DNA of 32,000 bases, taken from Nitratidesulfovibrio vulgaris str. Hildenborough. Lineage in GTDB: Bacteria; Desulfobacterota; Desulfovibrionia; Desulfovibrionales; Desulfovibrionaceae. The notes below the pieces were generated by a model. The model was not told where the DNA came from. It saw nothing but the letters and a program-made list of their open reading frames with translations, and made no database searches. Positions 3 to 13,437 of the stretch are shown one piece after another. Both the position numbers and the translations under genes were made by a program. The stretch lies in NCBI RefSeq assembly GCF_000195755.1, contig NC_002937.3, positions 1,830,001-1,862,000 of the forward strand, given 5' to 3'. Each line of letters opens with the position of its first letter. Position 1 is the first letter of the stretch.

Positions 3-128
3 CGCCACATGCGCGAACACGGCACGGACGTCTTCGGGGCTGCCAAAGCGACAGGACTCATCGACGAAGACCGGCTTGCAAGGCTGCTTTCTCCTGAACG
101 TCTCGTGGCACTGGGGTACAGAGGATGA
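3..128 (+). CDS. 3' end of a fumarate-lyase superfamily gene (aspartate ammonia-lyase/fumarase-like), truncated by the window edge
   Basis: The frame beginning at nt 3 reads RHMREHGTDVFGAAKATGLIDEDRLARLLSPERLVALGYRG*. The G-L-I-D-E-D..L..L.PE..V pattern resembles aspartase/fumarase C-termini. Stop TGA 126-128 overlaps the hydE ATG 125-127 (ATGA). Only 41 codons are visible. Confidence 0.4.
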   Translation, partial: RHMREHGTDVFGAAKATGLIDEDRLARLLSPERLVALGYRG

Positions 129-1093
129 CCGCCATGCAGCGCGATGAACTTCTGTATCTGCTCTACGAAGCCCCAGAACAAGAGCTTTTCGCACGGGCCG
201 ACGCTGTCCGGCGCACTCACAAGGGTGAACATGTCTTCGTACGCGGGCTGATCGAATTCTCCAGCCATTGTGTACGCGACTGTCGCTACTGTGGCCTTCG
301 GCGCTCCAACTCCGCAGCGCACCGCTACAGGCTCACCCCGCGTGAAGTCATCGACGCGGCCCGTCTCGCCGTCGCAGGTGGCGCAGACACCATCGTCCTG
401 CAATCAGGAGACGACCTCGCCTGCGAGGCGTCGACCATCGCTGCGATGATTCGCGGCATCCGGGAGGAACTCGGAGTGGTCGTCACCCTCGGTTGCGGCG
501 AACGCCCCCCACGCGACTATGCCCTGTGGCGTGAAGCCGGGGCCTCGCGATACCTCATGAAGCATGAGACCGCAGATGCGGCCCTCTACGCAAGACTGCA
601 TCCCGGCAGGACACTGGAACAACGGCTAGAAGCGCTCCGCACGCTGCATGGACTCGGCTACGAGATAGGCTCCGGCTTCATCATCGGCATACCGGGGCAG
701 ATGCCCGAAGTGCTCGCCGATGACATCCTTCTGGCGCGTGAACTCGGTGTGGAGATGTGCGGTGCCGGGCCGTTCATCCCACAGGCGCAGACACCGCTGG
801 GTGGCGAGCCTCAAGGGTCCACCGCCCTGGCGTTGCGGGTACTGGCCGCGCTGCGCATCGCCCTGCCCGACGCGAACCTTCCGGCGACGACGGCACTAGC
901 CACGCTCGACCCCATCGGCGGGCAACGTGACGGACTGCGCGCCGGGGCCAACGTACTCATGCCGGGTTTCACTCCTGACACACACCGGGCTCACTACCGC
1001 ATCTACGACAACAAACACCGCGTGGGTATGGACGAGGCACGCGCAGCCATCGAAGCTGCGGGCCGCACACATAGCCTGCGACGCGAGGCATGA
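125..1093 (+). CDS. hydE: [FeFe]-hydrogenase maturase HydE (radical SAM, BioB-like)
   Basis: 322 aa ORF with radical-SAM motif CVRDCRYCGLRR near the N-terminus and a BioB/HydE-like TIM-barrel length. It lies directly upstream of hydF and hydAB. Confidence 0.85.
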   Translation: MTAMQRDELLYLLYEAPEQELFARADAVRRTHKGEHVFVRGLIEFSSHCVRDCRYCGLRRSNSAAHRYRLTPREVIDAARLAVAGGADTIVLQSGDDLACEASTIAAMIRGIREELGVVVTLGCGERPPRDYALWREAGASRYLMKHETADAALYARLHPGRTLEQRLEALRTLHGLGYEIGSGFIIGIPGQMPEVLADDILLARELGVEMCGAGPFIPQAQTPLGGEPQGSTALALRVLAALRIALPDANLPATTALATLDPIGGQRDGLRAGANVLMPGFTPDTHRAHYRIYDNKHRVGMDEARAAIEAAGRTHSLRREA

Positions 1094-1097
1094 CCCC

Positions 1098-2330
1098 ATG
1101 CAGGACACCCCCAAGGGACTGCGACTGCACATAGGCATCTACGGACGCCGCAATGTCGGCAAGTCGTCGTTACTCAACGCGCTGACCCGGCAGACCGTGT
1201 CCATCGTCTCCGCCACTCCCGGCACCACGACAGACCCCGTGGAGAAGACCATGGAAATGGCCCCCATCGGGCCTGTGGTCTTCATCGACACGGCTGGCAT
1301 CGACGATACGGGCGACCTCGGCCTCATGCGCAGCGACAGGACGAGGCAGATGTTCGACCGCACCGACCTTGCGCTGGTTGCCAGCGAGGGCGATGTATGG
1401 GGAGACTATGAACGCGACCTCGTCGCGGCATTCCGGGAACGCAAGATACCCGTCATCGCAGTGCTGACAAAAGGCGATGAGACTCCTGTCGCGCAGACCG
1501 TTCGCCAATCACTTCTGGCCGAAGGCATCGAATCGGCGGCGGTGTGTTCCACAGATGGTCGCGGCATCGACGCGCTGCGTGCCCTCATGGCCCGCATGGC
1601 CCCGGAACATGCCATCAGCCAGCCAGCCCTTCTTGCCGACCTCGTGCCTGCTGGCGGGCTTGTCATCTTCGTCGTCCCCATCGACCTCGGAGCCCCCAAG
1701 GGAAGGCTCATCCTGCCGCAGGTGCAGGCCATTCGCGACATTCTCGACGGCGACGCCATGTGCATGGTCGTCAAGGAGCGCGAACTCCGCCCTGCCCTCG
1801 ACCGTCTCACGCAACCGCCCGACCTCGTGGTGTGCGACTCGCAGGTGGTGCTGAAGGCCGCAGCCGACACCCCGCCCGGCATCCCCCTGACGACCTTCTC
1901 CATTCTCATGGCACGGTTCAAGGGTGAACTTGAGACACTTGCACGCGGGGCAGCGGTCATCGAGACGCTCGCCCCCGGTGACCGGGTGCTTGTGGCAGAG
2001 GCGTGTACCCACCATCCACTCGCCGACGACATCGGCAGGGTGAAGATACCCCGCTGGCTGCGCCAGTACGCCGGGGGCAACATCCACATCGACACCTTCG
2101 CAGGCAAGGACATGCCTGCCGACCTTTCCGGCTACCGCCTCATCATCCATTGCGGTGGCTGCGTCATCACACGCGGGCACATGCTGGGGCGAATGCACGC
2201 CGCGGCTGCGGCGGGAGTACCCATGACCAACTACGGACTCGCCATATCACTCACGCAAGGGGTGCTGCACCGCGCCCTTGGCCCCTTCCCTGCGGCACAG
2301 GAGGCATTCGACTCCATACCGCGGGGCTGA
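1098..2330 (+). CDS. hydF: [FeFe]-hydrogenase maturation GTPase/scaffold HydF
   Basis: In-frame ATG at 1098, 4 nt after the hydE stop. The 927 start in the ORF track would overlap hydE. GTPase motifs GRRNVGKSS, DTAGID and TKGD. C-terminal cluster motif CTHH...HCGGC. Confidence 0.9.
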   Translation: MQDTPKGLRLHIGIYGRRNVGKSSLLNALTRQTVSIVSATPGTTTDPVEKTMEMAPIGPVVFIDTAGIDDTGDLGLMRSDRTRQMFDRTDLALVASEGDVWGDYERDLVAAFRERKIPVIAVLTKGDETPVAQTVRQSLLAEGIESAAVCSTDGRGIDALRALMARMAPEHAISQPALLADLVPAGGLVIFVVPIDLGAPKGRLILPQVQAIRDILDGDAMCMVVKERELRPALDRLTQPPDLVVCDSQVVLKAAADTPPGIPLTTFSILMARFKGELETLARGAAVIETLAPGDRVLVAEACTHHPLADDIGRVKIPRWLRQYAGGNIHIDTFAGKDMPADLSGYRLIIHCGGCVITRGHMLGRMHAAAAAGVPMTNYGLAISLTQGVLHRALGPFPAAQEAFDSIPRG

Positions 2331-2482: not shown

Positions 2483-3748
2483 ATGAGCCGTACCGTCATG
2501 GAGCGCATCGAATATGAGATGCACACTCCGGACCCCAAGGCCGATCCGGACAAGCTCCACTTCGTCCAGATCGACGAGGCAAAGTGCATAGGCTGCGACA
2601 CCTGTTCGCAGTACTGCCCCACCGCCGCCATCTTCGGCGAAATGGGCGAACCGCACTCCATTCCCCACATCGAGGCGTGCATCAACTGCGGCCAGTGCCT
2701 CACGCACTGCCCCGAGAACGCCATCTACGAGGCACAGTCGTGGGTGCCTGAAGTCGAGAAGAAGCTGAAGGACGGCAAGGTGAAATGCATCGCCATGCCC
2801 GCCCCCGCCGTGCGCTATGCACTGGGCGACGCCTTCGGCATGCCCGTCGGTTCCGTCACCACCGGCAAGATGCTCGCGGCCCTGCAGAAGCTCGGCTTCG
2901 CTCATTGCTGGGACACCGAGTTCACCGCTGACGTGACCATCTGGGAAGAGGGGTCCGAGTTCGTGGAACGCCTCACCAAGAAGAGCGACATGCCGCTGCC
3001 GCAGTTCACCTCGTGCTGCCCCGGCTGGCAGAAGTATGCCGAGACCTACTACCCCGAACTGCTGCCGCACTTCTCCACGTGCAAGTCGCCCATCGGCATG
3101 AACGGCGCACTGGCGAAGACCTACGGCGCAGAGCGGATGAAGTACGACCCCAAGCAGGTCTACACCGTCTCCATCATGCCCTGCATCGCAAAGAAGTACG
3201 AAGGGTTGCGTCCCGAACTGAAGTCCAGCGGCATGCGCGACATCGACGCCACGCTGACCACCCGTGAGCTGGCCTACATGATCAAGAAGGCCGGTATCGA
3301 CTTCGCGAAACTCCCCGACGGCAAGCGTGACAGCCTCATGGGTGAATCCACCGGCGGTGCCACCATCTTCGGCGTCACCGGCGGCGTCATGGAAGCGGCA
3401 CTCCGCTTCGCCTACGAAGCCGTCACCGGCAAGAAGCCCGACAGCTGGGACTTCAAGGCCGTGCGCGGTCTTGATGGCATCAAGGAAGCCACCGTCAACG
3501 TCGGCGGTACCGACGTCAAGGTCGCCGTGGTGCACGGGGCCAAGCGGTTCAAGCAGGTCTGCGACGATGTGAAGGCGGGCAAGTCGCCCTATCACTTCAT
3601 CGAATACATGGCCTGCCCCGGCGGCTGCGTCTGTGGCGGCGGTCAGCCCGTCATGCCCGGCGTGCTCGAAGCCATGGACCGCACCACCACCCGCCTTTAC
3701 GCGGGCCTGAAGAAGCGCCTCGCCATGGCGAGCGCCAACAAGGCATAG
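2483..3748 (+). CDS. hydA: Periplasmic [FeFe]-hydrogenase large subunit
   Basis: GGAGG at 2471-2475, 7 nt before ATG 2483, giving 421 aa. Two ferredoxin-type motifs [12 protein letters not shown] and [13 protein letters not shown]-cluster motifs [17 protein letters not shown] and [15 protein letters not shown]. The sequence matches my recollection of D. vulgaris HydA. Confidence 0.97.
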
Positions 3749-3759
3749 GAGGAAACGCC

Positions 3760-4131
3760 ATGCAGATAGCCAGCATCACCCGGCGCGGCTTCCTCAAGGT
3801 CGCCTGCGTCACGACGGGCGCAGCCCTCATCGGCATTCGCATGACCGGAAAGGCCGTTGCCGCCGTCAAGCAGATCAAGGACTACATGCTTGACCGCATC
3901 AACGGCGTCTACGGGGCGGATGCCAAGTTCCCCGTTCGCGCCTCGCAGGACAACACGCAGGTCAAGGCTCTCTACAAGAGCTACCTTGAGAAGCCTCTCG
4001 GTCACAAGTCGCACGACCTGCTGCACACGCACTGGTTCGACAAGTCCAAGGGCGTCAAGGAACTCACCACGGCAGGCAAGTTGCCCAACCCGCGTGCTTC
4101 CGAGTTCGAAGGTCCGTACCCCTACGAATAG
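3760..4131 (+). CDS. hydB: Periplasmic [FeFe]-hydrogenase small subunit with twin-arginine signal peptide
   Basis: AGGAGGAAA RBS overlaps the hydA stop. The N-terminus [10 protein letters not shown] is a Tat motif followed by a hydrophobic stretch and AVA. 123 aa. Confidence 0.97.
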
Positions 4132-4331
4132 CGCCAGAACGTATACGGAAGGCATAAACGCACATCCGTGATGCCGGAACCGCCTGCGGCGAGGGCCTCT
4201 TGGCCTGACCTCAGGGCGATTCCTCCGGCAACGCAGATGCATCTGCCCCACGATCTCATGACACGAAGACACTTAAAGTAATACATTACTGTTTTCGTGA
4301 AGCCTGTCCCTTGTGGCGCGGCGACAGAAAA

Positions 4332-4358
4332 GCCCCCCGACGCGCAGCGCAGGGGGGC
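4332..4358 (-). terminator. Rho-independent terminator of hydC
   Basis: GCCCCCC / GGGGGGC 7-bp GC stem with a 13-nt loop. On the minus strand it is followed by TTTTCT, 25 nt after the hydC stop. Confidence 0.6.
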
Positions 4359-4383: not shown

Positions 4384-6204
4384 TCAATCAGAGTCGCCCC
4401 GTACCCGCCTGCCAAGGGTCATCTCATGCCAGATGTCGCGCATGGTGTAGGCGACTTCGCTCTTGCGGTCGCCATACCGGGTGTGCAGCAGACGGTGAGA
4501 CAAATTCGAACAGGGCTCGCCAAGGAATGATTCGTAGACCTTGCCGATGAGCGGATTGTTGTGCGACTGCCGCAGTGCGTTTTCCGCATCGAGCGAGAAA
4601 AGGGCGGCACGTCGCGCCTGCGCGTTGGGGTTGTAGGCGCGCTTCGACCTCGGCTGACCGCCTCCGTCCATGCATCCACCCGGGCATGCCATGACCTCCA
4701 CGAACACATGGTCGGCCTTCCCTGCAAGAACCGCCTCGACCATCTGCCGGGCAGCCTTGAGCCCATGCACCACGGCGACCTTCACGGAACCGTTACCCTC
4801 ACCAAGCGGGACGACAGCCTCACGCACGTTCTCGTATCCGCGCAGGGCATGCAGTTCTACTGGGGCGAGTTCCTTGCCGTTCAGCACATGGTAGACCGTA
4901 CGCAGTGCCGCCTCCATTACCCCGCCTGTCGTACCGAAGATGACAGCCGCCCCGGTTGCCCGCCCCATCAGGGGGTCGTCGCAGGGCGAGGGTTCGAGTC
5001 CGGCGAGGTCTATGCCCTCACGCCGGAGAAGACGGGCGAACTCACGCGTGGTGAGCACTGCGTCCACATCCCGGACACCGTCGCGCCTGAATTCGGGCCG
5101 TGCGGCCTCTTCCTTCTTCGCCGTGCAGGGCATCAACGATACGACGCGCATCCTCTCCGGTGCGACGTTCATGGTGCGCGCAAGATAGGTCTTGGCCAAT
5201 GCGCCAAGGCACTGCTGAGGCGAGCGTGTGGTCGAGACATGCGGCAGGATGTCGGGGAGGTGCTTCTCGGCGAAATTCACCCAGCCGGGGCAGCAGGAGG
5301 TGAAGAGCGGCAGCTTCGCCCCGCCCCGAAGACGTTGCAGGAGTTCGGTGCCCTCCTCCATGATGACGAGGTCGGCTGCGAAGTTGGTATCGAGTACCAC
5401 GTCTGCCCCGAGAAGGCGCAAGGCCGTGGGCACCTGCCCTTCCACGCTTGAACCGGGAGGCAGCCCGAACTCCTCACCGAGGCCCACCCGCACCGCCGGG
5501 GCGAACTGGAACACGGTGACGATTTCGGGGTCGTAGAGATAGTCGATGACACGCTCCACGTCGTCCCGTCCAGCCAATGCCCCCACAGGGCAGACCAATG
5601 TGCACTGGCCACAGCCCACACAGTCGGACGCACTCTGGCTACGATTGTGCCGCAGCCCGATTTCGGTGCCGATGCCGTTTCCCGTCACCACGAGGGCATC
5701 GACGCCCTGTACGTTGCGGCACACGGCGACACAGCGCAGGCACCTGATGCACTTGCCCATGTCGCGCACGACGGACGGCGAAGAGACATCACGGGTGCGG
5801 CTGCGGGCATAGTCCGGAAAATGGTGACGCGTACCGGTAAGACCCACGAATTGTGCCACATCCTGCAACTCGCAGTCTCCATGACGGGCGCAGGCTGCGC
5901 AGTCATGGTCATGGTCGGCCAGCAGCAGTTCGACCTGTAGCCGCTGCATCCTGCGTACTTCAGGGGTACGCGTGAAGATGCGCATTCCCTCCTCGACGGG
6001 GGTCGTACAGGAGGTGACAATCTGCGGCCCGGCCTCCTTGTCACGCCATATCTCGACCAGACAGACCCGGCACGTCCCGGGTGCATGACCGATGTCGGCA
6101 AGTTCGCACAACGTGGGAATGAAGTGCCCGTTCTCGCGTGCGGCCTCAAGTATCGTCCTGCCCGGTTCACACCGGACTTCCTTGCCATTGATGAACGCGT
6201 TCAT
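4384..6204 (-). CDS. hydC: Cytoplasmic monomeric-type [FeFe]-hydrogenase: 2Fe-2S domain, His-ligated 4Fe-4S, two 4Fe-4S clusters, H-cluster and a fused small-subunit-like tail
   Basis: Start MNAFINGKEV at 6204, preceded by GGAGAG. The upstream ORF extension overlaps the neighbouring gene. No signal peptide. Motifs: C..GTCRVC (2Fe-2S), HDHDCAACARHGDC, CIRCLRCVAVC, CVGCGQCTLVCP, TSCCPGW, MPCTAKKEE and VMACPGGCMDGGGQP. 606 aa. Confidence 0.9.
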   Translation of the reverse strand: MNAFINGKEVRCEPGRTILEAARENGHFIPTLCELADIGHAPGTCRVCLVEIWRDKEAGPQIVTSCTTPVEEGMRIFTRTPEVRRMQRLQVELLLADHDHDCAACARHGDCELQDVAQFVGLTGTRHHFPDYARSRTRDVSSPSVVRDMGKCIRCLRCVAVCRNVQGVDALVVTGNGIGTEIGLRHNRSQSASDCVGCGQCTLVCPVGALAGRDDVERVIDYLYDPEIVTVFQFAPAVRVGLGEEFGLPPGSSVEGQVPTALRLLGADVVLDTNFAADLVIMEEGTELLQRLRGGAKLPLFTSCCPGWVNFAEKHLPDILPHVSTTRSPQQCLGALAKTYLARTMNVAPERMRVVSLMPCTAKKEEAARPEFRRDGVRDVDAVLTTREFARLLRREGIDLAGLEPSPCDDPLMGRATGAAVIFGTTGGVMEAALRTVYHVLNGKELAPVELHALRGYENVREAVVPLGEGNGSVKVAVVHGLKAARQMVEAVLAGKADHVFVEVMACPGGCMDGGGQPRSKRAYNPNAQARRAALFSLDAENALRQSHNNPLIGKVYESFLGEPCSNLSHRLLHTRYGDRKSEVAYTMRDIWHEMTLGRRVRGDSD

Positions 6205-6227
6205 GTGCTCTCCGCTTCGTCGGCCCG

Positions 6228-8249
6228 TCAGTCGTCGCACTGCGGGATGGCGGCCTCGGTGATGACAGAATAGACGCGGTAGCAACGCAGACAGCGTCCG
6301 GCCTCGTGATAGGCGTCCTCTGCGGAGATGGGACATTCCACCTCGTCGAACAACTGCCTGCGGTAGGCGGGGTCGAGTTCCTGTGCATGGATGCGGTACA
6401 GATGACGAACCGGAGTATCGACCCACTGTTGCGACAGCGGTTTGAAATCACGGATGATACGGCGCATCCGGCTTCTGGGAAAGAAGCGGACCCTGCCGTA
6501 GCGCAGATAGTCGTCGATGCTCCGCGCCCCCTTGAGGCCGGTCGCCATGGCCTGGATGAGCGTTGAGGGGCCCAAGGCGCAGTCGCCCCCGGCAAAGACA
6601 CCGGGCCGCGTCGTGGCGAGAGTGGTCTGGTCGGAGACGACGCGACCTCGCGCGTCGACATCGACGCCGTCCTCCGGCGAAAGCGCGGTGCTGTCCATCT
6701 GCTGGCCGATGGCGGGGATGAGGGTATCGCAGGGTATGACGCGCCCCGACCCCGACACCGCGACGACGCCGCGCCTTCCTCGCGCATCGGGCTCGCCCTC
6801 GCGCATGTCCACGACCTCGACACCGACGACACGGTCACGGGTCACGCCTGCGGAGTCCACCATCTGTCTGGTGATGATGCGCACCGGGTTGGTGAGGTAG
6901 TGGAAGACCACGCCCTCCTTCTCTGCGGCCTCTATCTCCTCATGGTCGGCAGGCATGGCGTCGCGTGTGCGACGGTAGACAAGGTGCACCTCACGTGCGC
7001 CGAGGCGCAATGCGGAACGGACACAGTCCATGGCGACGTTGCCGCCCCCCACGACCACGACCACCCCTGACAGCGAAGCGTCGGCTTGCGATTCGACATG
7101 GTCGTGCACTCGCAAGAGAAAGTCGATGCCGGGCTGGTATCCTTCAAGCGATGTATCCTCCCCCTCAATGCCCAGAAGGCGTCCTTCCGGGCAACCAAGG
7201 GCGAGAAACACGGCCTTGTATCCCTGCTCACGGAGTCCATCGAGCGAGACATCGTGCCCGAGACGCTGTCCATAGAAGAACCGCCCTCCGAGACGTTCGA
7301 CGATGTCGGTCTCCGTACGGAGGACATCCTTGGGCAACCTGTAACTGGGAATGCCGCATGCAGCCATGCCCCCCGCCTCGTTACGCGCCTCGAACACGTC
7401 GACGGGGTAGCCGTTGAGAAGCAGGTGATAGGCGCAGGATATGCCGGCAGGTCCGGCCCCCACCACTGCCACCTTGAGGTGGCCGGGTTTTCTGTCACGT
7501 ACGATATCAGGAGAGAACCAGCCCTGCGCAAGGTGACTCTCATGGTCGGCGACGTAGCGTTTGAGAATCTTGATGCCAACGGGCTCATCGACCAGCCCGC
7601 GTCGGCATGCCTGTTCGCAGAACCGCACGCACACACGGCCACAGGTCGCCGCCATGGGATACTTCTGCAGGATGACCCCGAGCGAATGCGAGGGCATGCC
7701 GTCACGTATGTAATCGATATAGCGGGGGACATTCACTCTGGCGGGACAGGCTTCGATGCACGGTGCCGTGACATAGCTCATGCCGTGCTGCTGTCCGCTC
7801 GCCGTGCGCGCCCCTTCAACGAGCATATCCTGAAAGTGCTCAAGCGCGCCGCACAGTGCCACAGTGCACGTGCGCCCGAGGCCGCACAATGAAGTAGAGC
7901 GTACCTGTTCAGCGAGTTCGACCAAAGTGCCCAGACCGCCAGAACCGACACCATCACGCAGCAGGGCGGCGAGGCTGTCGCGGATGATACCCGTGCCGAC
8001 ACGGCATGGCGTACACTTGCCGCATGACTCGCGGGCGGCCCTTTCCATATACTGCCACAAGGCATCGAGCAGATTCACACCCGGTTCGAAGACGAAGAAC
8101 CCTCTATCTCCGACAAAGGCGCGAATGGAGTTGCCCTGATTGAACGTATCGAACCCTTCGAACCCCGGCGCATCCGGTATCTCGAAAAGCGCCTTTCCCC
8201 TGTTGTCGTGGACGGTACCGTCCCAGATTCCGTAGATGACACGTGCCAT
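6228..8249 (-). CDS. Fe-S flavoprotein: NuoF C-terminal (SLBB/4Fe-4S) module fused to a GltD/NfnB-like NAD(P)H:FAD oxidoreductase
   Basis: Start MARVIYGIWDG at 8249. ESCGKCTPCRVG...SLCGLG is a NuoF N3-type cluster. CIEACP and CGRVCVRFCEQAC are GltD-type clusters. Dinucleotide folds VAVVGAGPAG and VVVVGGGNVAMD, and GVFAGGDC. The stop lies 23 nt before the hydC start. Confidence 0.85.
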   Translation of the reverse strand: MARVIYGIWDGTVHDNRGKALFEIPDAPGFEGFDTFNQGNSIRAFVGDRGFFVFEPGVNLLDALWQYMERAARESCGKCTPCRVGTGIIRDSLAALLRDGVGSGGLGTLVELAEQVRSTSLCGLGRTCTVALCGALEHFQDMLVEGARTASGQQHGMSYVTAPCIEACPARVNVPRYIDYIRDGMPSHSLGVILQKYPMAATCGRVCVRFCEQACRRGLVDEPVGIKILKRYVADHESHLAQGWFSPDIVRDRKPGHLKVAVVGAGPAGISCAYHLLLNGYPVDVFEARNEAGGMAACGIPSYRLPKDVLRTETDIVERLGGRFFYGQRLGHDVSLDGLREQGYKAVFLALGCPEGRLLGIEGEDTSLEGYQPGIDFLLRVHDHVESQADASLSGVVVVVGGGNVAMDCVRSALRLGAREVHLVYRRTRDAMPADHEEIEAAEKEGVVFHYLTNPVRIITRQMVDSAGVTRDRVVGVEVVDMREGEPDARGRRGVVAVSGSGRVIPCDTLIPAIGQQMDSTALSPEDGVDVDARGRVVSDQTTLATTRPGVFAGGDCALGPSTLIQAMATGLKGARSIDDYLRYGRVRFFPRSRMRRIIRDFKPLSQQWVDTPVRHLYRIHAQELDPAYRRQLFDEVECPISAEDAYHEAGRCLRCYRVYSVITEAAIPQCDD

Positions 8250-8747
8250 GCAGCTTCCGTAAAACCCCTCGCGGGTATGAGTATGGATACGGCAAAAGAC
8301 GAGACAGGTACGTCGCAAAACCCCGAAACCGACTTCTACCTATGAGCAGGGAAGAAAGAAAGCCTGAAAACCTGCCATGGAAACCCTTTGCTTACTCCAC
8401 ATCAGATATGTGGCTGTGCTATGCTGCACTGAAAAGAATCGTCACCCGCCACCGCCATGCCGGGACGCCTCTCATCTGGCGCATGGCGAGAGGCACCAAC
8501 GCCTGCGCATCTGTAAAGAAATGCTTCGACGTATAACGATGGCAGAATATCCACTGCAGCCCCAAAGGTGACGAAAACAGGGTGCCAACAGAACATGCGG
8601 CATCCCACCTGTTGGCTTCCGGCCCGCAACGTGGCATAGGGGGAACGCCCCATTGACGGCCTGCACGCCGCGGGTACTGCCGCTTCAGACAGGCAATACC
8701 ACCATGTCGGTCCGACACGGGCAAATAGCCCCACAGACGGAGAGAGA

Positions 8748-9629
8748 ATGCTTTTCCGATTCGGCAAAAAGGACGACCTGCCCGAAGCGCAGGACACCGT
8801 AAACGACCTGCTTGGACAGGCCATCGATACCCGTGCGAAGTTCATCGTCGTAGTCCCGGAAAGAGACACCAAGCCTCATTCGGTGACGTGTTCAGTCGAA
8901 CATGTCTCACGGGAGAGCATCCTTCTCGACGTCTCGCGCGCCACGGCCCTCAGCACCGGCTGGAAAGGCCGCAAGGTGCAGTGTTTCTTCAGCATCGTCA
9001 GGCTTCAGCCGAATCGTTCCGAAACGTTCTACAACTTCTCCGCGACGTTGCTCGACCTGCGCCGTACGAGCAAGGGTGTGCTCATCGAGCTTTCCATGCC
9101 CCGCAGCATCGAACCGGGACAGCGACGCAAGAGCCTGAGGATACGCCCGCTGCCATCACTCGTACTGTCCCTTTCCATGTGGCAGAATCCCGAACTTGCG
9201 GGCATGATGCAGGAACCGGCAACGGTGCAGGTGCTTCCATCCATCCCCTACCCCAACCTGCTCAAAGTCGGGGGCATCCGCGTTGCCGACATCTCCGCCG
9301 GGGGAATGCGTCTTGCCGTTCTGGGAAGTGCCTTGCAGGCACAGACATGGCTGGGCGAAGAGGGGCGACGCCTCATGCACTGTGTTCTCGGTTCTGTGGC
9401 CGACCAGCCTGTCCACGAATACTGGTTCAGCGTGACCCGTGCCAACGTCACCCCGGCCCCCTCACTCTCGGATGAAGCCTTCATCGGATTCGAGTTCACT
9501 CATGAAGGCAAACCCAACAAGGCCAAAGGACTCGACTGGCTTCCGGTGAAGGATGGCCATGTCCATCGGCTGAGCCGTTGGACGAACGCCGTATACATGC
9601 AATACATCCGCAAGGTTGCCACAGACTGA
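8748..9629 (+). CDS. YcgR-like PilZ-domain protein (putative c-di-GMP receptor)
   Basis: GGAGAGAGA RBS. QRRKSLR (RxxxR) at residues 125-131 and DISAGG (DxSxxG) at 181-186. The N-terminal ~120 aa is plausibly PilZN-like. 293 aa. Confidence 0.6.
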   Translation: MLFRFGKKDDLPEAQDTVNDLLGQAIDTRAKFIVVVPERDTKPHSVTCSVEHVSRESILLDVSRATALSTGWKGRKVQCFFSIVRLQPNRSETFYNFSATLLDLRRTSKGVLIELSMPRSIEPGQRRKSLRIRPLPSLVLSLSMWQNPELAGMMQEPATVQVLPSIPYPNLLKVGGIRVADISAGGMRLAVLGSALQAQTWLGEEGRRLMHCVLGSVADQPVHEYWFSVTRANVTPAPSLSDEAFIGFEFTHEGKPNKAKGLDWLPVKDGHVHRLSRWTNAVYMQYIRKVATD

Positions 9630-9736
9630 ACACACCTGCGCGGGGAGTGGCATTGCCCGACAGGCAATCACCTCCGCAGGGCGGGCGGTTTCTGTTTATG
9701 CCGCTTCGCTCCCTCAGTTGGCTTGGGCCATACATG

Positions 9737-9770
9737 AAAAGGGGCGCCCGCAGGACGCCCCTTCATTTTC
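9737..9770. terminator. Bidirectional hairpin terminator between the convergent PilZ gene and ribB
   Basis: AAAAGGGGCG-cccgcagga-CGCCCCTTCATTTTC. The GC stem is flanked by an A-run upstream and a T-rich run downstream. Confidence 0.6.
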
Positions 9771-9891
9771 CCTTCATTCTGGAGATGGAACGGCGCCGAT
9801 GCGGGCGTTCCATACGGAGGCTGCGACAGGAACACGGTATGCAGCGTCCTGCCGCTAGAGTCGCGCACCCTTCCCGACGGGGCACACGGCA

Positions 9892-10536
9892 TCAGAGCCC
9901 TTTGTCTTGCCTGTACGCGACAAGGTCTTCGACCGTAAGCACAGTCATCCTGTTCCGTTGGGCGAAGTCCACCAGTTGAGGCAAGCGGGCCATCGTGCCG
10001 TCGGGGTTCGTCAATTCGCAGAGAACACCATAAGGCTTGAGCCCTGCCAGACGCATGAGGTCGACTGTGGCTTCGGTATGACCGCGTCGTTCCAGCACCC
10101 CGCCGGGGCTTGCCCGCAACGGGAACACATGCCCCGGAGAACGCAGGCAGCCGGGACAGGCTGCGTCGTCGATGGCGGCCTTGACCGTACGAACACGGTC
10201 TGCGGCCGAAACACCTGTGGTGACGCCCTCTGCGGCTTCGATGCTGATGGTGAACGCCGTTCCCATGCTGCTGGTATTGTGAGCGACCATCATGGGCAGG
10301 CCAAGTCTGCTGACGCGCTCTTCGGGAAGGCACAGGCACACGATTCCGCTACATTCGCGTATCATCATGGCCATCTGTGCGGGAGTGAGGGTCTCAGCCG
10401 CGAAGATGAGGTCGCCCTCGTTCTCGCGGTCTGCGTCGTCGGCCACGAGAACGCCCTGACCCGTGCGAAGGGCGGCAAGCCCGCGCTCCACACGCTCGTG
10501 CGTCGTACCGAACTGTTCAAGGAGATGCTGATTCAT
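9892..10536 (-). CDS. ribB: 3,4-dihydroxy-2-butanone-4-phosphate synthase (standalone RibB)
   Basis: Start [10 protein letters not shown] at 10536 with a GGAGGG RBS. Motifs [16 protein letters not shown] and GHTEATVDL. 214 aa with no GTP cyclohydrolase II domain. Confidence 0.92.
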
Positions 10537-10629
10537 GGAATCCCTCCAGTGAGGCATGAACCAGGGCGTAGGGACAGAGGCTCCGTCTATGCGCAAAGCA
10601 TGAGCCTTTCGCACGGCACGGATGCCACC

Positions 10630-11009: not shown

Positions 11010-11654
11010 TCATGCGCAAGCGGTGACAAGTTCGACGAAACTGTCCTCGTCACCGTCATACCTGAGCAATTTGCCTTTCTCCATGTCGAAGAACCAGCCA
11101 TGCAGCGCAAGAGTCCCCTCCTCCACCCTCTTCGCTATCCACGGGAAGGTAAGCAGGTTCTCAAGCGAGACGAGCAACGCCGCCTGTTCGCAGGCGCGTT
11201 CCTGTACTTCCGGCGTTGCATGCGGCAACGATTCGAGTACTTGCATACGCGCCCTTCGGGCTATCCCCATCCATGGCCCTATGAACTCGCCCTGCCCTTC
11301 AGCCTGTTGCATGAGCGAATGGATGCCCCCGCAACACGCATGCCCGAGCACGATGATGTGTTCGACGTCAAGGCACGTCACCGCATATTCTATGGCGGCG
11401 CTGACCCCGTGGAAATTGGCGTCAGGGCCATAGGGAGGAACGAGGTTGGCGACGTTGCGGATGACGAACAGGTCGCCCGGATTGCAGTCGGTCAGGTGAG
11501 CAGGGTCGACACGCGAGTCGCTGCACGCGATGACGAGAGCCCGTGGTGCCTGCCCTTCACGCAAGGATTCGAACAGATTGTGGTCGTGGCAAAAATAGTT
11601 ACGCTGAAACCGGCGAAAACCGGCGATGAACCTGTCGAGATCCCTCTGTGGCAT
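11010..11654 (-). CDS. cynT: Beta-class carbonic anhydrase
   Basis: Start MPQRDLDRF at 11654 with an AGAGGA RBS. Zinc-ligand motifs CSDSR and HACCGG. 214 aa. It starts 22 nt after the CDF stop. Confidence 0.9.
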   Translation of the reverse strand: MPQRDLDRFIAGFRRFQRNYFCHDHNLFESLREGQAPRALVIACSDSRVDPAHLTDCNPGDLFVIRNVANLVPPYGPDANFHGVSAAIEYAVTCLDVEHIIVLGHACCGGIHSLMQQAEGQGEFIGPWMGIARRARMQVLESLPHATPEVQERACEQAALLVSLENLLTFPWIAKRVEEGTLALHGWFFDMEKGKLLRYDGDEDSFVELVTACA

Positions 11655-11676
11655 CGAATGTCCTCTGTCCTGATCG

Positions 11677-13122
11677 TTAAGCCTGATGGTTTCGCGGCGT
11701 CGGCTCCATATGAATGGCCACCCGAGAGATATCACCCAACCTTGCACGCAGGGACTTCTCAAGTCGCGTAGCGGCCTCATGGGCGACCGACACCGGGGTT
11801 TCGGGAGACATGCGGCAATGAAAGCTCAACGAAAGCTCATCACCTAGCCGGTGAAGCCGCATGTTGTGACAATCGTCGACGTCAGGCTCTGCGTCAAGCA
11901 GGGAGTGCACCACCCCTTCCACAGCAGTGAGCGCCTCATTACTTGCCTCCGGCAGGGCATCCTCGCGAACAGCGACCGGTTCGATATGCGTCACCACCGT
12001 GGCTTTGCCCAGCGTTCTCGCAAGGTCGGCTTCGAACGCACTCACCCGCTCATGCGCGACTTCAAGCCGTTCCTCTCCGGCGACCTCTGCATGCAGGTCG
12101 ACATGCTGTTCTCCGTCGACCAGCATGAACGAAACGGCATGCACGGCAAGCCCGTGTGAAGCGGCAACACCACGGATACGTTCGAGCATCCCCACCTCGT
12201 CGGGACTGGCGGGTTCCATGTGTACGATAACGTCGGCTTGGGGAAGCACCGCCTGGAGACGGCGTTCGGCCTGTTCGGAAAGAGTATGAGACGCTTCAAA
12301 GCTCATCCCTTGCGGCACGCAAAGCAACAGGTCGACAAATGTGCGAGGCCCACTCTGGCGTACCCGAAGTCGCTCGATGCGGACGATACCCGGCAAATCC
12401 TTCAGGGCATCCGCAGCACGCTCGACCTGTTCCTGCGCCCCGCCGTCGAGCAGCACGTCGACAGCGCGTCGACCAAGTTGCAGGCTCACGAAAACGACGA
12501 TGCACGACACGACGAGTGCCGCGAAGGCATCAGCCCGTTGCAGCACGGCGAACATGAACGAGTCCTGCGGAAAGAACATGGCGGCGCGCAACGCCAGAAG
12601 CCCCGCGATGACCACCGCCGAAGACCATACGTCCGTCGAGAAATGCAGGGCGTCGGCTTCCAGTGCCTGACTGTTGTGCTTGCGGGCGACCCGGCGCAGC
12701 ATGCGTGCACGGGAAATGTCGACGACGATTGAGACGCCCATGACGGCAAGCCCCCATACCGAAGGTTCCACATGAACGGCTTCGAAGAAGAGTCTGTCGA
12801 CGGCTTCACGCACAATCCAGCCGCAGGTGAGCAACAGCAGTAACGTCTCCACAAGCGCGGAGAGGTTCTCCACCTTGCCGTGCCCGTAGGGATGGTCGGC
12901 ATCGGCGGGGCGCGACGCCGCACGAACAGCCCAGTAGGTCACGACCGCGGCAACAAGGTCGAGACCGCTATGGGCCGCTTCGGAGAGGATGCCCAGACTG
13001 TTGGTGGCGAACCCCACTCCCAGTTTGAGTCCCGTAAGCAGCAAAGCCGCCCCGACGGATGAAAGCGCAGCGATGCGCTTCTCCCTGTCGGCCTCGGCGA
13101 TATAGGTATAATCGTCTGACAT
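11677..13122 (-). CDS. Cation diffusion facilitator (CDF) divalent-metal transporter with three tandem cytoplasmic ZT_dimer-like domains
   Basis: Start MSDDYTY at 13122 with a GGAGTGAG RBS. TM2 HSGLD and TM5 HFSTD form an HD-HD metal site. Three C-terminal modules each end in VHMEP, THIEP or IHMEP. 481 aa. Confidence 0.88.
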   Translation of the reverse strand: MSDDYTYIAEADREKRIAALSSVGAALLLTGLKLGVGFATNSLGILSEAAHSGLDLVAAVVTYWAVRAASRPADADHPYGHGKVENLSALVETLLLLLTCGWIVREAVDRLFFEAVHVEPSVWGLAVMGVSIVVDISRARMLRRVARKHNSQALEADALHFSTDVWSSAVVIAGLLALRAAMFFPQDSFMFAVLQRADAFAALVVSCIVVFVSLQLGRRAVDVLLDGGAQEQVERAADALKDLPGIVRIERLRVRQSGPRTFVDLLLCVPQGMSFEASHTLSEQAERRLQAVLPQADVIVHMEPASPDEVGMLERIRGVAASHGLAVHAVSFMLVDGEQHVDLHAEVAGEERLEVAHERVSAFEADLARTLGKATVVTHIEPVAVREDALPEASNEALTAVEGVVHSLLDAEPDVDDCHNMRLHRLGDELSLSFHCRMSPETPVSVAHEAATRLEKSLRARLGDISRVAIHMEPTPRNHQA

Positions 13123-13437
13123 GCTCACTCCGGTAGAATCTGGCATCCGGCGGCGGCGCGCACGAGGCAAGCCGCTCACCCCCATGTCGCGGCTACGAGG
13201 CCAATGCCTGCGGGCAGTTCACCTGCTGATGGCATCGACATCGCGTCACGCAATCCTGTAGCACCGGATTCTCTACCACCGGAGAATTTCCATGCAACCT
13301 GTGATAATGCATTGCATATTCCATGCACATCGACGACAGGCGCGGCAACACGATACACCGATCGCACCGGAACCTTGCGCATTCGCCATCACACTCGGCT
13401 GAACGGTCGCGTGAGGGCGGATACAGGCACGGCAGGA

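What the first reader, a model, noticed from the sequence alone, without database searches (positions are those of the whole stretch)
4384..8249. Cytoplasmic multi-cluster [FeFe]-hydrogenase co-transcribed with a NuoF-tail/GltD-like flavoprotein: an uncharacterised NAD(P)-linked hydrogenase module beside the classical periplasmic enzyme
Seen in sequence: hydC has no export signal. It carries a 2Fe-2S domain, an HxxxCxxCxxxxxC cluster, two ferredoxin-type 4Fe-4S motifs and all three H-cluster motifs. Its start lies 23 nt after the stop of a 673-aa protein. That protein joins only the Fe-S tail of NuoF (ESCGKCTPCR...SLCGLG) to a GltD/NfnB-type module with two Cys clusters and two GxGxxG/A dinucleotide folds. 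I saw no FMN/NADH-binding domain in it. Established, from recollection: hydrogenases with a glutamate-synthase-beta-like partner are classed as a separate [FeFe] group (A2 in the HydDB scheme). As far as I know their physiological acceptor is not biochemically settled. Inference: the pair forms an H2:NAD(P)+ or ferredoxin/NAD(P)-coupled enzyme. It would share the HydE/HydF maturases encoded 3 kb away and sits convergent to hydAB.
Basis: partly seen in the sequence, partly recalled or inferred. Interest (0 to 1): 0.7.

Follow-up and report, generated by a model that had tools for sequence, protein, structure and literature searches.

The report
Cytoplasmic NADP-linked [FeFe]-hydrogenase gene pair
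This is the already-annotated cytoplasmic iron hydrogenase gene (hydC) of a Desulfovibrio vulgaris-type genome, sitting in a two-gene unit with a flavoprotein that most likely links hydrogen to NADP(H); the unit belongs to a widespread hydrogenase class that nobody has yet characterised biochemically.

Summary
Two minus-strand genes lie 23 nt apart. One encodes a 673-aa flavoprotein (6228-8249). The window matches Desulfovibrio vulgaris Hildenborough, so the hydrogenase is the known hydC (DVU1771), and the pair falls in [FeFe] group A2, still called 'functionally uncharacterised' in a 2026 preprint.

What I add:
- The partner is not a plain GltD. It runs collinear with the C-terminal 640 residues of NuoF(HydB)-GltD fusion proteins.
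- It keeps only an SLBB remnant, the N3-type [4Fe-4S] bundle, and a circularly permuted GltD module of the StnC/NfnABC type. That module has Lys at the cluster-ligand position where bifurcating NfnB has Glu, plus a GGGNxAMD...YRR NADP(H) motif.
- The order partner-then-hydrogenase recurs across at least six phyla.
- Hydrogenases with such short partners form one clade (96/100 NJ bootstraps).

Best reading: a non-bifurcating heterodimeric H2:NADP+ oxidoreductase (about 0.55). Activity, complex formation and co-transcription remain untested. The locus is already known and interest is moderate.

The parts
6228..8249 (-). Partner flavoprotein gene (673 aa, 73.6 kDa; probably DVU1772). Predicted cofactors: three [4Fe-4S] clusters, FAD and an NADP(H) site.
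   Evidence: ORF and start context. Pfam NADH_4Fe-4S + Fer4_20 + Pyr_redox_2. Best NCBIfam match PRK12771, 400 bits.
8070..8249 (-). Partner residues 1-60: a small beta-rich remnant of the NuoF SLBB domain.
   Evidence: BLASTP aligns partner 1-60 to residues 374-439 of the long NuoF-GltD protein of L005. PF10531 SLBB is detected at the homologous place in L012. AF2 predicts strands 6-53 with pLDDT 82-92.
7821..8066 (-). Partner residues 62-143: the NuoF C-terminal helical bundle with N3-type [4Fe-4S] ligands C76, C79, C82 and C122.
   Evidence: PF10589, 68.8 bits. These cysteines are invariant in 50 homologues.
7536..7769 (-). Partner residues 161-238: the GltD/NfnB Fe-S domain (C164, C168, C203, C207, C211, C215), with K230 at the position of the StnC K170 cluster ligand.
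   Evidence: PF14691, 75 bits. Residue-level alignment to 8oh5_C. K230 is invariant.
6537..7475 (-). Partner residues 259-571: the FAD fold (GAGPAG at 264) and the NADP(H) fold (GGGNVAMD at 401 ... VYRRT at 424).
   Evidence: PF07992, 104 bits. The motif is shared with the NADP(H)-binding NfnB, NfnI-L, StnC and NfnA chains.
6231..6500 (-). Partner residues 584-673: the permuted first helix of the GltD module, carrying the C653-x2-C656 ligand pair.
   Evidence: phmmer aligns residues 623-656 to residues 9-42 of NfnB 4ylf_B, and residues 627-658 (weakly, 0.1 bits) to residues 16-47 of 5jca_L. The tail also aligns to its end-of-module position in 8oh5_C, 9bov_A and 9n5u_A. RCxxC is present in all S and L loci.
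6205..6227 (-). 23-nt intergenic spacer holding the GGAGAG ribosome-binding site of hydC. No terminator-like hairpin.
4384..6204 (-). hydC (DVU1771): a 606-aa cytoplasmic M3-type [FeFe]-hydrogenase.
5560..6204 (-). HydC residues 1-215: the NuoG-like relay, with a [2Fe-2S], a His-ligated [4Fe-4S] and two [4Fe-4S] clusters.
   Evidence: Pfam Fer2_4, NADH-G_4Fe-4S_3 and Fer4_Nqo3. Motifs.
4465..5517 (-). HydC residues 230-580: the H-cluster domain plus a fused small-subunit-like tail.
   Evidence: PF02906, 296 bits, and PF02256, 68 bits. L1/L2/L3 motifs.
4326..4358 (-). Likely intrinsic terminator of the pair: GCCCCCC-UGCGC-UGC-GCGUC-GGGGGGC followed by UUUUCU, starting 26 nt after the hydC stop.
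   Evidence: Sequence and RNA fold. The consensus scan missed it because the outer loop exceeds 8 nt.
8250..8747 (-). About 500 nt of upstream non-coding region, presumably holding the promoter. It contains a sigma-54-like TGGCAC-N5-TTTC at 8573-8587.
   Evidence: The site is not above chance for the window.
125..2330 (+). HydE and HydF H-cluster maturase genes. Any [FeFe]-hydrogenase of the cell needs them.
   Evidence: TIGR03956, 291 bits, and TIGR03918, 542 bits, both above their cut-offs.
2483..4131 (+). hydA/hydB: the periplasmic [FeFe]-hydrogenase, convergent with hydC.
   Evidence: HydA matches PDB 1HFE_L over all 421 residues, 989 bits. HydB has the Tat motif TRRGFLK.

Best explanation
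The two genes encode a soluble cytoplasmic heterodimer (or a multiple of it) that reversibly couples H2 to NADP+/NADPH without electron bifurcation.

**Proposed electron path (inferred).**
1. H2 is split at the H-cluster of HydC.
2. Electrons pass one at a time through HydC's two [4Fe-4S] clusters to its N-terminal NuoG-like clusters ([2Fe-2S] and the His-ligated [4Fe-4S]).
3. They cross to the N3-type [4Fe-4S] in the partner's NuoF-derived bundle. This would re-use the NuoF-NuoG docking geometry of complex I and HydABC.
4. They run through the two [4Fe-4S] clusters of the permuted GltD module, the second of which has Lys230 at the ligand position.
5. They collect on FAD, which hands a hydride to NADP+.

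**Direction (inferred).** With H2 plentiful the enzyme would make NADPH. With H2 kept very low by the periplasmic hydrogenases it could vent NADPH electrons as H2.

**Shown here:** the domains, motifs, gene order, conservation and co-phylogeny.

**Inferred:** the complex, the path, the NADP(H) specificity and the direction.
For: 1. All cofactor motifs for this path are present and invariant across 50 homologues.
2. The partner has no FMN domain and there is no NuoE gene, so the HydABC-type bifurcating centre is missing. Long relatives do have both.
3. The GltD module is of the StnC/NfnABC type by sequence and by fold. In Stn this module binds FAD and NADPH, feeds a linear cluster chain into a NuoG-like domain, and does not bifurcate (PMC10482914).
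4. The cluster-ligand position is Lys, as in StnC (K170), not Glu as in bifurcating NfnB.
5. GGGNVAMD...VYRRT is shared with five solved relatives. Four are documented NADP(H) binders: 5jca is the NADP(H)-bound NfnI, StnC binds NADPH per PMC10482914, and 4ylf_B and 9n5u_A are Nfn NADPH subunits. 9bov_A is inferred by homology.
6. The partner gene is followed by a HydC-type gene, by my estimate at -4 to about 106 nt, in all 17 short-partner loci. These span Alphaproteobacteria, Desulfobacterota, Verrucomicrobiota, Actinomycetota (Collinsella, Enorma) and Bacillota. No third gene is conserved.
7. H-domains with short partners form a clade in 96 of 100 NJ bootstraps, so catalytic subunit and partner co-evolve.
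8. The thermodynamics allow it. E0' for H2 is -414 mV. NADP+/NADPH is about -370 mV in anaerobes. H2 at 250 Pa is about -340 mV (PMC6288185).
9. DVU1771 peptides were reported from cathode-grown cells (PMC11705803).
Against: - No enzyme of this class has been purified. It is called 'functionally uncharacterised' in 2026.
- Cofactor specificity of such hydrogenases 'could not be determined' in silico according to PMC3561251.
- HydC's closest solved relatives are the catalytic subunits of bifurcating HydABC (519 bits against 412 for CpI).
- The Arg that contacts flavin N5 in NfnB is conserved (R304), so bifurcation is not excluded by sequence.
- HydC has two surface-side clusters ([2Fe-2S] and the His-ligated cluster). 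One would stay free for a second partner such as ferredoxin.
- The AF2 model is weak in the Fe-S domain (pLDDT below 50 for 186-223), and no complex model could be made.
- A weak promoter-like site lies inside the partner gene's 3' end (6454-6481).
Confidence: 0.55

Rival explanations
1. A two-subunit electron-confurcating/bifurcating hydrogenase. The NfnB-like FAD splits or merges electrons, so that NADPH plus reduced ferredoxin together drive H2 formation (or H2 reduces NADP+ and ferredoxin together). Ferredoxin would dock at the free N-terminal cluster of HydC.
For: - The partner's core fold is that of NfnB, whose FAD is a bifurcating flavin.
- R304, equivalent to NfnB R201, is invariant.
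- HydC resembles bifurcating HydA1 more than CpI.
- The NuoG-like domain offers a branched cluster arrangement (branching recalled from the CpI structure).
Against: - There is no NfnA-like subunit, NuoE gene or FMN domain in or next to the pair.
- Lys replaces the Glu ligand of NfnB.
- The same permuted module in StnC was shown by mutagenesis and structure to be non-bifurcating (PMC10482914).
Confidence: 0.12
2. There is no stable complex. HydC is a CpI-like ferredoxin-dependent monomeric hydrogenase, and the neighbour is a separate NADPH:ferredoxin oxidoreductase. The two communicate only through soluble ferredoxin or flavodoxin.
For: - M3-type hydrogenases such as CpI work alone with ferredoxin (412-bit match).
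- Sources name HydC homologues 'ferredoxin hydrogenase gamma subunit'.
- GltD-like proteins such as SudA/NfnB do reduce ferredoxin (PMC7483475).
Against: - Gene order is strict and spacing is tight or overlapping across phyla.
- The catalytic subunit forms a clade specific to partner type.
- The partner retains a NuoF bundle whose only known role is to hand electrons to a NuoG-type domain, and HydC has exactly such a domain.
Confidence: 0.12
3. Same complex and path, but the physiological nucleotide is NAD(H), or both nucleotides.
For: - HydDB's putative role for A2 names NAD reduction.
- HydC scores 721 bits on NCBIfam 'NADH-dependent [FeFe] hydrogenase, group A6'.
- In-silico cofactor calls for these enzymes are unreliable (PMC3561251).
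Against: - That NCBIfam score is below its 765-bit cut-off and concerns the catalytic subunit, not the nucleotide site.
- The Rossmann motif ends in Tyr-Arg-Arg, as in the NADP(H)-binding relatives, rather than in an acidic residue. The motif rule itself is general knowledge.
Confidence: 0.08
4. A glutamate-synthase-linked hydrogenase in the literal sense. The partner acts as a GltD beta subunit feeding a GltB large subunit, so that H2 drives glutamate synthesis.
For: The class name in HydDB is 'Glutamate synthase-linked (putative)'. There are GltD-family hits in NCBIfam.
Against: - All GltD models score far below cut-off (TIGR01317 191 vs 448; TIGR01318 282 vs 483).
- No gltB-like gene lies in the window or beside the pair in Rhodovastum or D. 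aminophilus.
- The module is permuted and fused to a NuoF piece, unlike GltD.
Confidence: 0.03

Closest known systems
[FeFe]-hydrogenase group A2 ('glutamate synthase-linked, putative'; HydDB/Greening scheme). The same enzymes are called dimeric NAD(P)H-dependent [FeFe] hydrogenases in the clostridial literature, e.g. C. thermocellum Cthe_3003-3004.
   Same: A group A catalytic subunit with a neighbouring gene for a GltD-like Fe-S flavoprotein (PRK12771/PRK12814 hits). The role is predicted to be NAD(P)-linked and is unproven.
   Different: Here the flavoprotein gene is upstream, not downstream, and it contains a NuoF fragment, which the 2016 HydDB rule excludes. The class as defined by neighbourhood lumps at least two architectures: short tail-only partners, and full NuoF-GltD fusions with NuoE.
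StnC of the Sporomusa ovata StnABC transhydrogenase (PDB 8OH5), and the equivalent subunits of Nfn-ABC from Thermococcus sibiricus (9N5U) and Caldicellulosiruptor saccharolyticus (9BOV).
   Same: These are the best sequence and fold matches for the partner. They share the permuted GltD module with a C-terminal CxxC, a Lys at the cluster-ligand position, and the FAD and NADP(H) motifs. Electrons pass into a NuoG-like cluster chain.
   Different: In those enzymes the module is fused inside a NuoG/formate-dehydrogenase-like polypeptide and serves a NuoE/NuoF bifurcating core. Here it is fused to a NuoF remnant and serves a hydrogenase, with no bifurcating core present.
HydABC-type electron-bifurcating [FeFe]-hydrogenases (group A3; PDB 7Q4V, 8A6T, 7P5H).
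   Same: HydC is most similar to their HydA subunits (519 and 516 bits). The partner's first 150 residues are homologous to the C-terminal part of HydB/NuoF.
   Different: There is no FMN/NADH domain and no HydC(NuoE) subunit. There are no C-terminal ferredoxin-like clusters of HydB either; a GltD module stands in their place.
NfnB/NfnI-L of NfnAB (PDB 4YLF, 5JCA) and GltD of glutamate synthase (2VDC, 6S6S).
   Same: The same core fold, with two [4Fe-4S] clusters, FAD and NADPH motifs (258 bits; TM about 0.7 on the target).
   Different: Those have the canonical order with CxxC at the N-terminus and a Glu ligand, and they partner with NfnA or GltB. The partner here is permuted, has Lys, and lacks those partners.
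SfrAB NADPH:Fe(III) oxidoreductase of Geobacter sulfurreducens, and the NADP-dependent formate dehydrogenase of Moorella thermoacetica.
   Same: By description, each is a two-subunit NADPH-linked enzyme made of a GltD-like subunit and a NuoG-like or catalytic subunit (PMC7483475; PMC6288185). Many close homologues of the partner are auto-named 'formate dehydrogenase (NADP+) beta subunit'.
   Different: I had no reference sequence of SfrB or FdhB, so the relationship is untested here. Every short-partner locus I examined had a hydrogenase, not a molybdopterin enzyme, next to it, so that auto-name looks wrong for them.

Membership tests
[FeFe]-hydrogenase, group A (catalytic subunit) | H-cluster binding motifs L1 (TSCCPxW), L2 (MPCxxKxxE) and L3 (ExMxCxxGCxxGGGQP). 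| tested here: met
   Found at residues 302, 358 and 503. PF02906, 296 bits. TIGR02512, 532 bits vs cut-off 406.
[FeFe]-hydrogenase, group A (catalytic subunit) | M3 architecture: [2Fe-2S], a His-ligated [4Fe-4S] and two [4Fe-4S] clusters N-terminal to the H-domain. | tested here: met
   Pfam Fer2_4, NADH-G_4Fe-4S_3 and Fer4 dicluster. Motifs. Full-length alignment to CpI and HydA1.
[FeFe] group A2, HydDB 2016 rule | The protein immediately DOWNSTREAM of the catalytic gene has a GltA/GltD/'putative oxidoreductase' domain and no NuoF domain. | tested here: not met
   Downstream of hydC lie a terminator and the convergent hydB. The GltD-like gene is upstream and carries PF10589/NuoF-family hits.
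[FeFe] group A2, 2026 neighbourhood rule | PRK12771, COG0493, PRK12814 or PRK12831 domain within two genes either side of a group A hydrogenase. | tested here: met
   PRK12771 E=1.6e-119 and PRK12814 E=1.2e-118 on the adjacent gene. Rule quoted. Both scores are below NCBIfam's own whole-protein cut-offs.
[FeFe] group A2 | A demonstrated enzymatic activity that defines the class. | not testable with these tools
   None exists in the literature searched. It is 'functionally uncharacterised'.
NuoF / HydB (group A3 partner) | FMN- and NADH-binding domain (PF01512), with the SLBB domain and the N3 cluster. | tested here: not met
   No PF01512 hit. Only the last ~115 residues of NuoF models align. 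Long relatives hit PF01512 at 1e-45.
GltD (glutamate synthase small subunit) | Whole-protein match to GltD models, and partnership with GltB. | tested here: not met
   TIGR01317 191 vs 448. TIGR01318 282 vs 483. No GltB-like neighbour.
NfnB (bifurcating subunit of NfnAB) | Canonical domain order, a Glu-ligated proximal cluster and an NfnA partner. | tested here: not met
   The CxxC helix is permuted to the C-terminus, and Lys230 stands in place of Glu. No NfnA-like gene is adjacent.
StnC/NfnABC-type NADPH module | A permuted GltD module with a terminal CxxC, a Lys ligand, and FAD plus NADP(H) motifs. | tested here: met
   Alignments to 8oh5_C, 9bov_A and 9n5u_A over residues 124/161-657. Top Foldseek hits.
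StnC/NfnABC-type NADPH module | Insertion in a NuoG/FdhF-like polypeptide, and association with a NuoE/NuoF bifurcating core. | tested here: not met
   The partner ends after the module. No NuoE or full NuoF is in the window.
SfrB / NADP-formate dehydrogenase beta subunit | Orthology to GSU SfrB or Moorella FdhB, and a molybdopterin-type catalytic neighbour. | not tested
   No reference sequence was available. The neighbour here is a hydrogenase. The name appears only as an automatic annotation.

The most novel reading that the evidence does not exclude
The pair is a minimal two-subunit flavin-based confurcating hydrogenase. The NfnB-like FAD of the partner merges electrons from NADPH with electrons from reduced ferredoxin, which docks at the unused N-terminal cluster of HydC. 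This would let Desulfovibrio and many gut and soil bacteria make H2 from NADPH against the thermodynamic gradient, without any NuoE/NuoF core. A milder version is an evolutionary one: the enzyme is a 'de-bifurcated' descendant of a HydABC-GltD hydrogenase, which would show how bifurcating complexes decay into simple ones.
Probability: 0.1. Interest if true: 0.75.

Novelty: already known. Interest (0 to 1): 0.35.

Why it matters
Group A2 [FeFe]-hydrogenases are common. A 2026 survey found them in 17% of human-gut bacterial species. Because their reaction is unknown, such surveys leave them out of H2 budgets. D. vulgaris is genetically tractable, encodes the maturases HydE and HydF next to this pair, and already has a DVU1771 deletion strain. 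That makes this locus a practical place to settle what the class does.

The analysis narrows the hypothesis to a single-nucleotide, non-bifurcating H2:NADP+ oxidoreductase. It names residues to mutate: K230, C653/C656 and R304. It also shows that 'A2' as currently assigned by gene neighbourhood mixes short-partner enzymes with NuoE + NuoF-GltD + HydA enzymes, which probably do different chemistry.

For Desulfovibrio physiology, such an enzyme would give a direct route between cytoplasmic H2 and the NADPH pool.

Tried and rejected
- **Bootstrap run.** A Biopython BLOSUM bootstrap timed out. I redid it with a fast Kimura-distance NJ.
- **Terminator and promoter scans.** The consensus scan found no terminator after hydC and no convincing sigma-70 promoter upstream. 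The terminator was found by reading and folding the sequence instead. A sigma-54-like site upstream is no more frequent than chance, so it is not claimed.
- **Literature.** Searches for DVU1772, 'hyd gamma', and NADPH-dependent dimeric [FeFe] hydrogenase characterisation found nothing relevant. Two attempts to open the Pereira 2011 review failed because it is not held. The paper cap then stopped a look at the C. thermocellum proteomics.
- **Nomenclature trap.** One paper's 'group A2' uses a different scheme (CpI = A2), so I set it aside.
- **Complex model.** I considered modelling the complex by fusing the two chains.
- **Natural fusions.** I looked for partner-hydrogenase fusions among the top 120 homologues of each protein and found none.
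- **Genome scan limits.** I re-used those as group A3 references. The sample is not a census.
- **Glutamate-synthase reading.** I rejected the literal 'glutamate synthase-linked' reading (see rivals).

Full report
**What is there**

On the minus strand, an ORF runs from ATG 8249 to TGA 6228-6230 and encodes 673 aa. After 23 nt that contain a GGAGAG ribosome-binding site, a second ORF runs from ATG 6204 to the stop at 4384-4386 and encodes 606 aa, 66.0 kDa. The region is about 63% G+C. No terminator-like hairpin lies between the genes. A G+C-rich hairpin followed by UUUUCU sits at 4326-4358, starting 26 nt after the hydC stop.

The neighbours on the plus strand are:
- HydE, at 125-1093 (TIGR03956, above cut-off).
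- HydF, within 927-2330 (TIGR03918, above cut-off).
- hydA.
- hydB, which has a Tat motif.

All of these end at 4131, convergent with hydC. HydA matches PDB 1HFE_L over all 421 residues at 989 bits. The window is therefore Desulfovibrio vulgaris Hildenborough or something nearly identical. The two genes correspond to DVU1771 (hydC) and, from my recollection of the genome numbering, DVU1772.

**The hydrogenase**

HydC has the full M3 layout:
- a [2Fe-2S] site (C33/45/48/66);
- HxxxCxxCxxxxxC (98-111);
- two CxxCxxCxxxC motifs;
- the three H-cluster motifs;
- a fused small-subunit-like tail.

It passes TIGR02512 ([FeFe] hydrogenase group A; 532 bits vs cut-off 406). It falls just short of the NCBIfam 'A6, NADH-dependent' model (721 vs 765). 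Its best solved relatives are the HydA subunits of bifurcating HydABC (519 and 516 bits), ahead of CpI (412). It has no export signal.

**The partner**

Pfam finds NADH_4Fe-4S (62-143), Fer4_20 (161-238) and Pyr_redox_2 (259-571). It finds no FMN domain.

1. *The GltD-like module is circularly permuted.* phmmer aligns residues 623-656 (ELDPAYRRQLFDEVECPISAEDAYHEAGRCLRC) to the N-terminus (residues 9-42) of T. maritima NfnB. It aligns residues 627-658 to residues 16-47 of P. furiosus NfnI-L, though only weakly (0.1 bits). The same tail aligns in place with the end of the module in StnC (8OH5), C. saccharolyticus Nfn-ABC (9BOV) and T. sibiricus NfnA (9N5U). So the 'extra' C-terminal 90 residues supply the CxxC pair (C653, C656). 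That completes the eight cysteines of the two [4Fe-4S] clusters.

2. *The cluster next to the flavin has Lys, not Glu.* In StnC the fourth ligand of that cluster is Lys170. Bifurcating NfnB has Glu there (PMC10482914). The partner has Lys230, invariant in 50 homologues. In a census of related loci, Lys together with a C-terminal RCxxC was found in 16 of 17 short and at least 10 of 17 long partners. The two canonical NfnB-like genes had Glu and no C-terminal CxxC.

3. *The whole partner is collinear with the C-terminus of a longer fusion protein.* Residues 1-657 align at 37% identity with residues 374-1011 of a 1015-aa protein from an Armatimonadota MAG. That protein carries a thioredoxin-like [2Fe-2S] piece and the NuoF FMN domain, followed by NADH_4Fe-4S, Fer4_20 and Pyr_redox_2. 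Its relative in L012 also shows the SLBB domain between the FMN domain and NADH_4Fe-4S. The partner therefore equals an SLBB remnant, the N3 bundle and a permuted GltD module. It is most simply read as an N-terminally truncated HydB-GltD fusion.

An AlphaFold2 model has mean pLDDT 79.5 and is weak in the cofactor-free Fe-S domain. Its closest PDB folds are 9N5U_A, 9BOV_A and 8OH5_C, then NfnI-L and NfnB.

The nucleotide motif GGGNVAMD...VYRRT is shared with five solved relatives. Four of them are documented NADP(H) binders: NfnI-L (5JCA, the NADP(H)-bound structure), NfnB (4YLF), StnC (PMC10482914) and NfnA (9N5U). 9BOV_A is inferred by homology. That the Arg-Arg pair marks 2'-phosphate binding is general knowledge of Rossmann folds, not something tested here.

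**Comparative evidence that the two proteins work together**

The partner has thousands of full-length homologues of about 665 aa and 58-83% identity with the same architecture. HydC has a matching set. In at least 13 cases, by my comparison of the longest-contig lengths listed, a partner homologue and a HydC homologue appear to sit on the same contig.

A scan of GTDB species genomes returned 43 loci with a full partner-type match. I reached three findings from them.

- *Short partners.* In all 17 loci with a short partner (600-670 aa), a HydC-type gene with both the NuoG-like and H-domains follows directly. By my estimate from the hit and ORF coordinates, the spacing runs from a 4-nt overlap to about 106 nt. 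The hosts are:
  - Ancalomicrobiaceae and Rhodovastum (Alphaproteobacteria);
  - Pelobacter, Desulfovibrionaceae and D. aminophilus;
  - Verrucomicrobium;
  - Collinsella and Enorma;
  - Lachnospiraceae and Oribacterium.
- *No third gene.* No third gene is shared between the two flanking regions I inspected.
- *Long partners.* These are about 1010-1050 aa, with a NuoE-like gene found directly upstream in all six loci inspected (L005, L010, L012, L013, L016, L018). In nine loci a HydA follows. Elsewhere a molybdopterin enzyme or another oxidoreductase follows.

An NJ tree of H-domains puts all short-partner hydrogenases in one clade (96/100 bootstraps). It has two fully supported subclades, and DvH HydC is sister to the D. 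aminophilus enzyme. The long-partner group is only weakly supported (36/100). This is a rough distance tree, not a maximum-likelihood analysis.

**How it most likely works**

The partner has one flavin site and one nucleotide site. It lacks the FMN/NuoE centre that bifurcates in HydABC and Stn. Its module is of the type shown experimentally to pass electrons linearly from NADPH-FAD through two clusters into a NuoG-like chain (PMC10482914). HydC offers exactly such a NuoG-like chain, and the partner keeps the one piece of NuoF that normally abuts it.

I therefore read the pair as a non-bifurcating H2:NADP+ oxidoreductase. The path is H-cluster, then the two [4Fe-4S] clusters, then [2Fe-2S] or the His-ligated cluster, then the N3-type cluster, then two [4Fe-4S] clusters, then FAD, then NADP+.

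The energetics are close to equilibrium in cells. NADP+/NADPH is near -370 mV, and H2 ranges from -414 mV at 1 bar to -340 mV at 250 Pa (PMC6288185). Either direction is therefore possible. I favour NADPH formation when H2 is supplied. Peptides of DVU1771 were reported from cathode-attached cells (PMC11705803).

The cluster assignments follow from motifs. The docking, the order of the path, the specificity and the direction are all inference. Confidence is about 0.55.

**Rivals**

- *Two-subunit confurcating enzyme using ferredoxin as well.* Sequence does not exclude this: R304 is conserved, HydC resembles bifurcating HydA, and one N-terminal cluster stays free. The Lys ligand, the StnC precedent and the absence of any second flavin or NfnA-type branch make it less likely (0.12).
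- *Two independent enzymes linked by ferredoxin.* This fits CpI-like behaviour. It does not fit the tight conserved pairing, the partner-specific clade, or the retained NuoF bundle (0.12).
- *NAD(H) instead of NADP(H).* Possible but disfavoured by the motif (0.08).
- *Literal link to glutamate synthase.* Poorly supported (0.03).

**Comparison with what is known**

hydC is an old gene name. From memory, it was described in 1989 as a 65.8-kDa homologue of the periplasmic enzyme, but I could not retrieve that paper. Current papers record the following:
- 'the cytoplasmic [Fe] HydC' is listed among the D. vulgaris hydrogenases (PMC10989807);
- DVU1771 was deleted in the all-hydrogenase mutant JW5095 (PMC10127678).

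The class is [FeFe] group A2. Under the 2016 HydDB rule the locus fails, because the GltD-like gene is upstream and has a NuoF element. Under the 2026 rule (PRK12771/PRK12814 within two genes) it passes. Similar clostridial pairs were called NAD(P)H-dependent on genomic grounds only (PMC3561251).

So the finding is real and correctly read, but the locus and its class are already known. What remains open is the biochemistry. What is new here is descriptive:
- the truncated-HydB origin of the partner;
- its permuted StnC-type module;
- the split of 'A2' into short- and long-partner forms.

**Verdict**

- Observation: confirmed.
- Interpretation: partly supported and sharpened.
- Novelty: already known.
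- Interest: 0.35. A specialist would not be surprised. Even so, the locus is a good, tractable handle on a widespread uncharacterised hydrogenase class.

Noticed in passing
L005, L006, L010-L013, L016, L018 (e.g. L012:4106-9693): A three-gene unit: a NuoE-like gene, a ~1030-aa fusion of full NuoF/HydB with a permuted GltD NADP(H) module, and a HydA-type [FeFe]-hydrogenase. The GltD module stands where HydB normally has its ferredoxin-side clusters. The enzyme would therefore carry both an FMN/NAD(H) site and an FAD/NADP(H) site. The same fusion also sits next to a molybdopterin enzyme (L019) and other oxidoreductases (L008, L014).
   Followed up: partly
L081:1-11848 (Rhodovastum atsumiense chromosome): An alphaproteobacterium carries the partner-hydC pair (2-nt gap) directly after a cbb3 oxidase and fixGHIS assembly cluster. 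That is an oxygen-sensitive [FeFe]-hydrogenase beside genes for microaerobic respiration. Close homologues also occur in Hyphomicrobiales, Rhizomicrobium and Azospirillaceae MAGs.
   Followed up: no
one search hit list (P0035-P0119): Many close homologues of the partner (58-64% identity) are auto-named 'formate dehydrogenase (NADP+) beta subunit'. Yet every short-partner locus inspected had a hydrogenase next to it, not a formate dehydrogenase. The name is probably propagated misannotation.
   Followed up: partly
window 8573-8587 (-): A sigma-54-like element, TGGCACCCTGTTTTC (one mismatch to TGGCAC-N5-TTGC), lies about 325 nt upstream of the partner's start codon. Such matches occur about as often by chance in the window (4 found, 3.4 expected).
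   Followed up: partly
window 6454-6481 (-): A weak sigma-70-like site (TTCCCA-16-TATCAT, 9 of 12) lies inside the 3' end of the partner gene, about 250 nt upstream of hydC. It could give hydC a transcript of its own. It is not above background.
   Followed up: no
window 8250-9891: About 1.6 kb lies between the partner gene and ribB (9892-10614, minus strand; DHBP synthase of riboflavin synthesis). It holds only ORFs without any Pfam or NCBIfam match (e.g. 8748-9629 on the plus strand, 8402-8872 on the minus strand). What is encoded there is unclear.
   Followed up: partly
window 11010-11780 (-), 11677-13185 (-), 14586-16085 (-): A carbonic-anhydrase-like gene, a cation-efflux (CDF) transporter and a LutB-type lactate-utilisation Fe-S protein follow further along. 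Beyond them the window holds rpoD, dnaG, a MutS2/Smr gene, ksgA and an EF-G gene. This is ordinary chromosomal context.
   Followed up: no
partner residue 639 (window 6333-6335) and residue 671: The D. vulgaris partner has extra cysteines (C639 in VECPIS, C671) that are not conserved in homologues. They are unlikely to be ligands.
   Followed up: no
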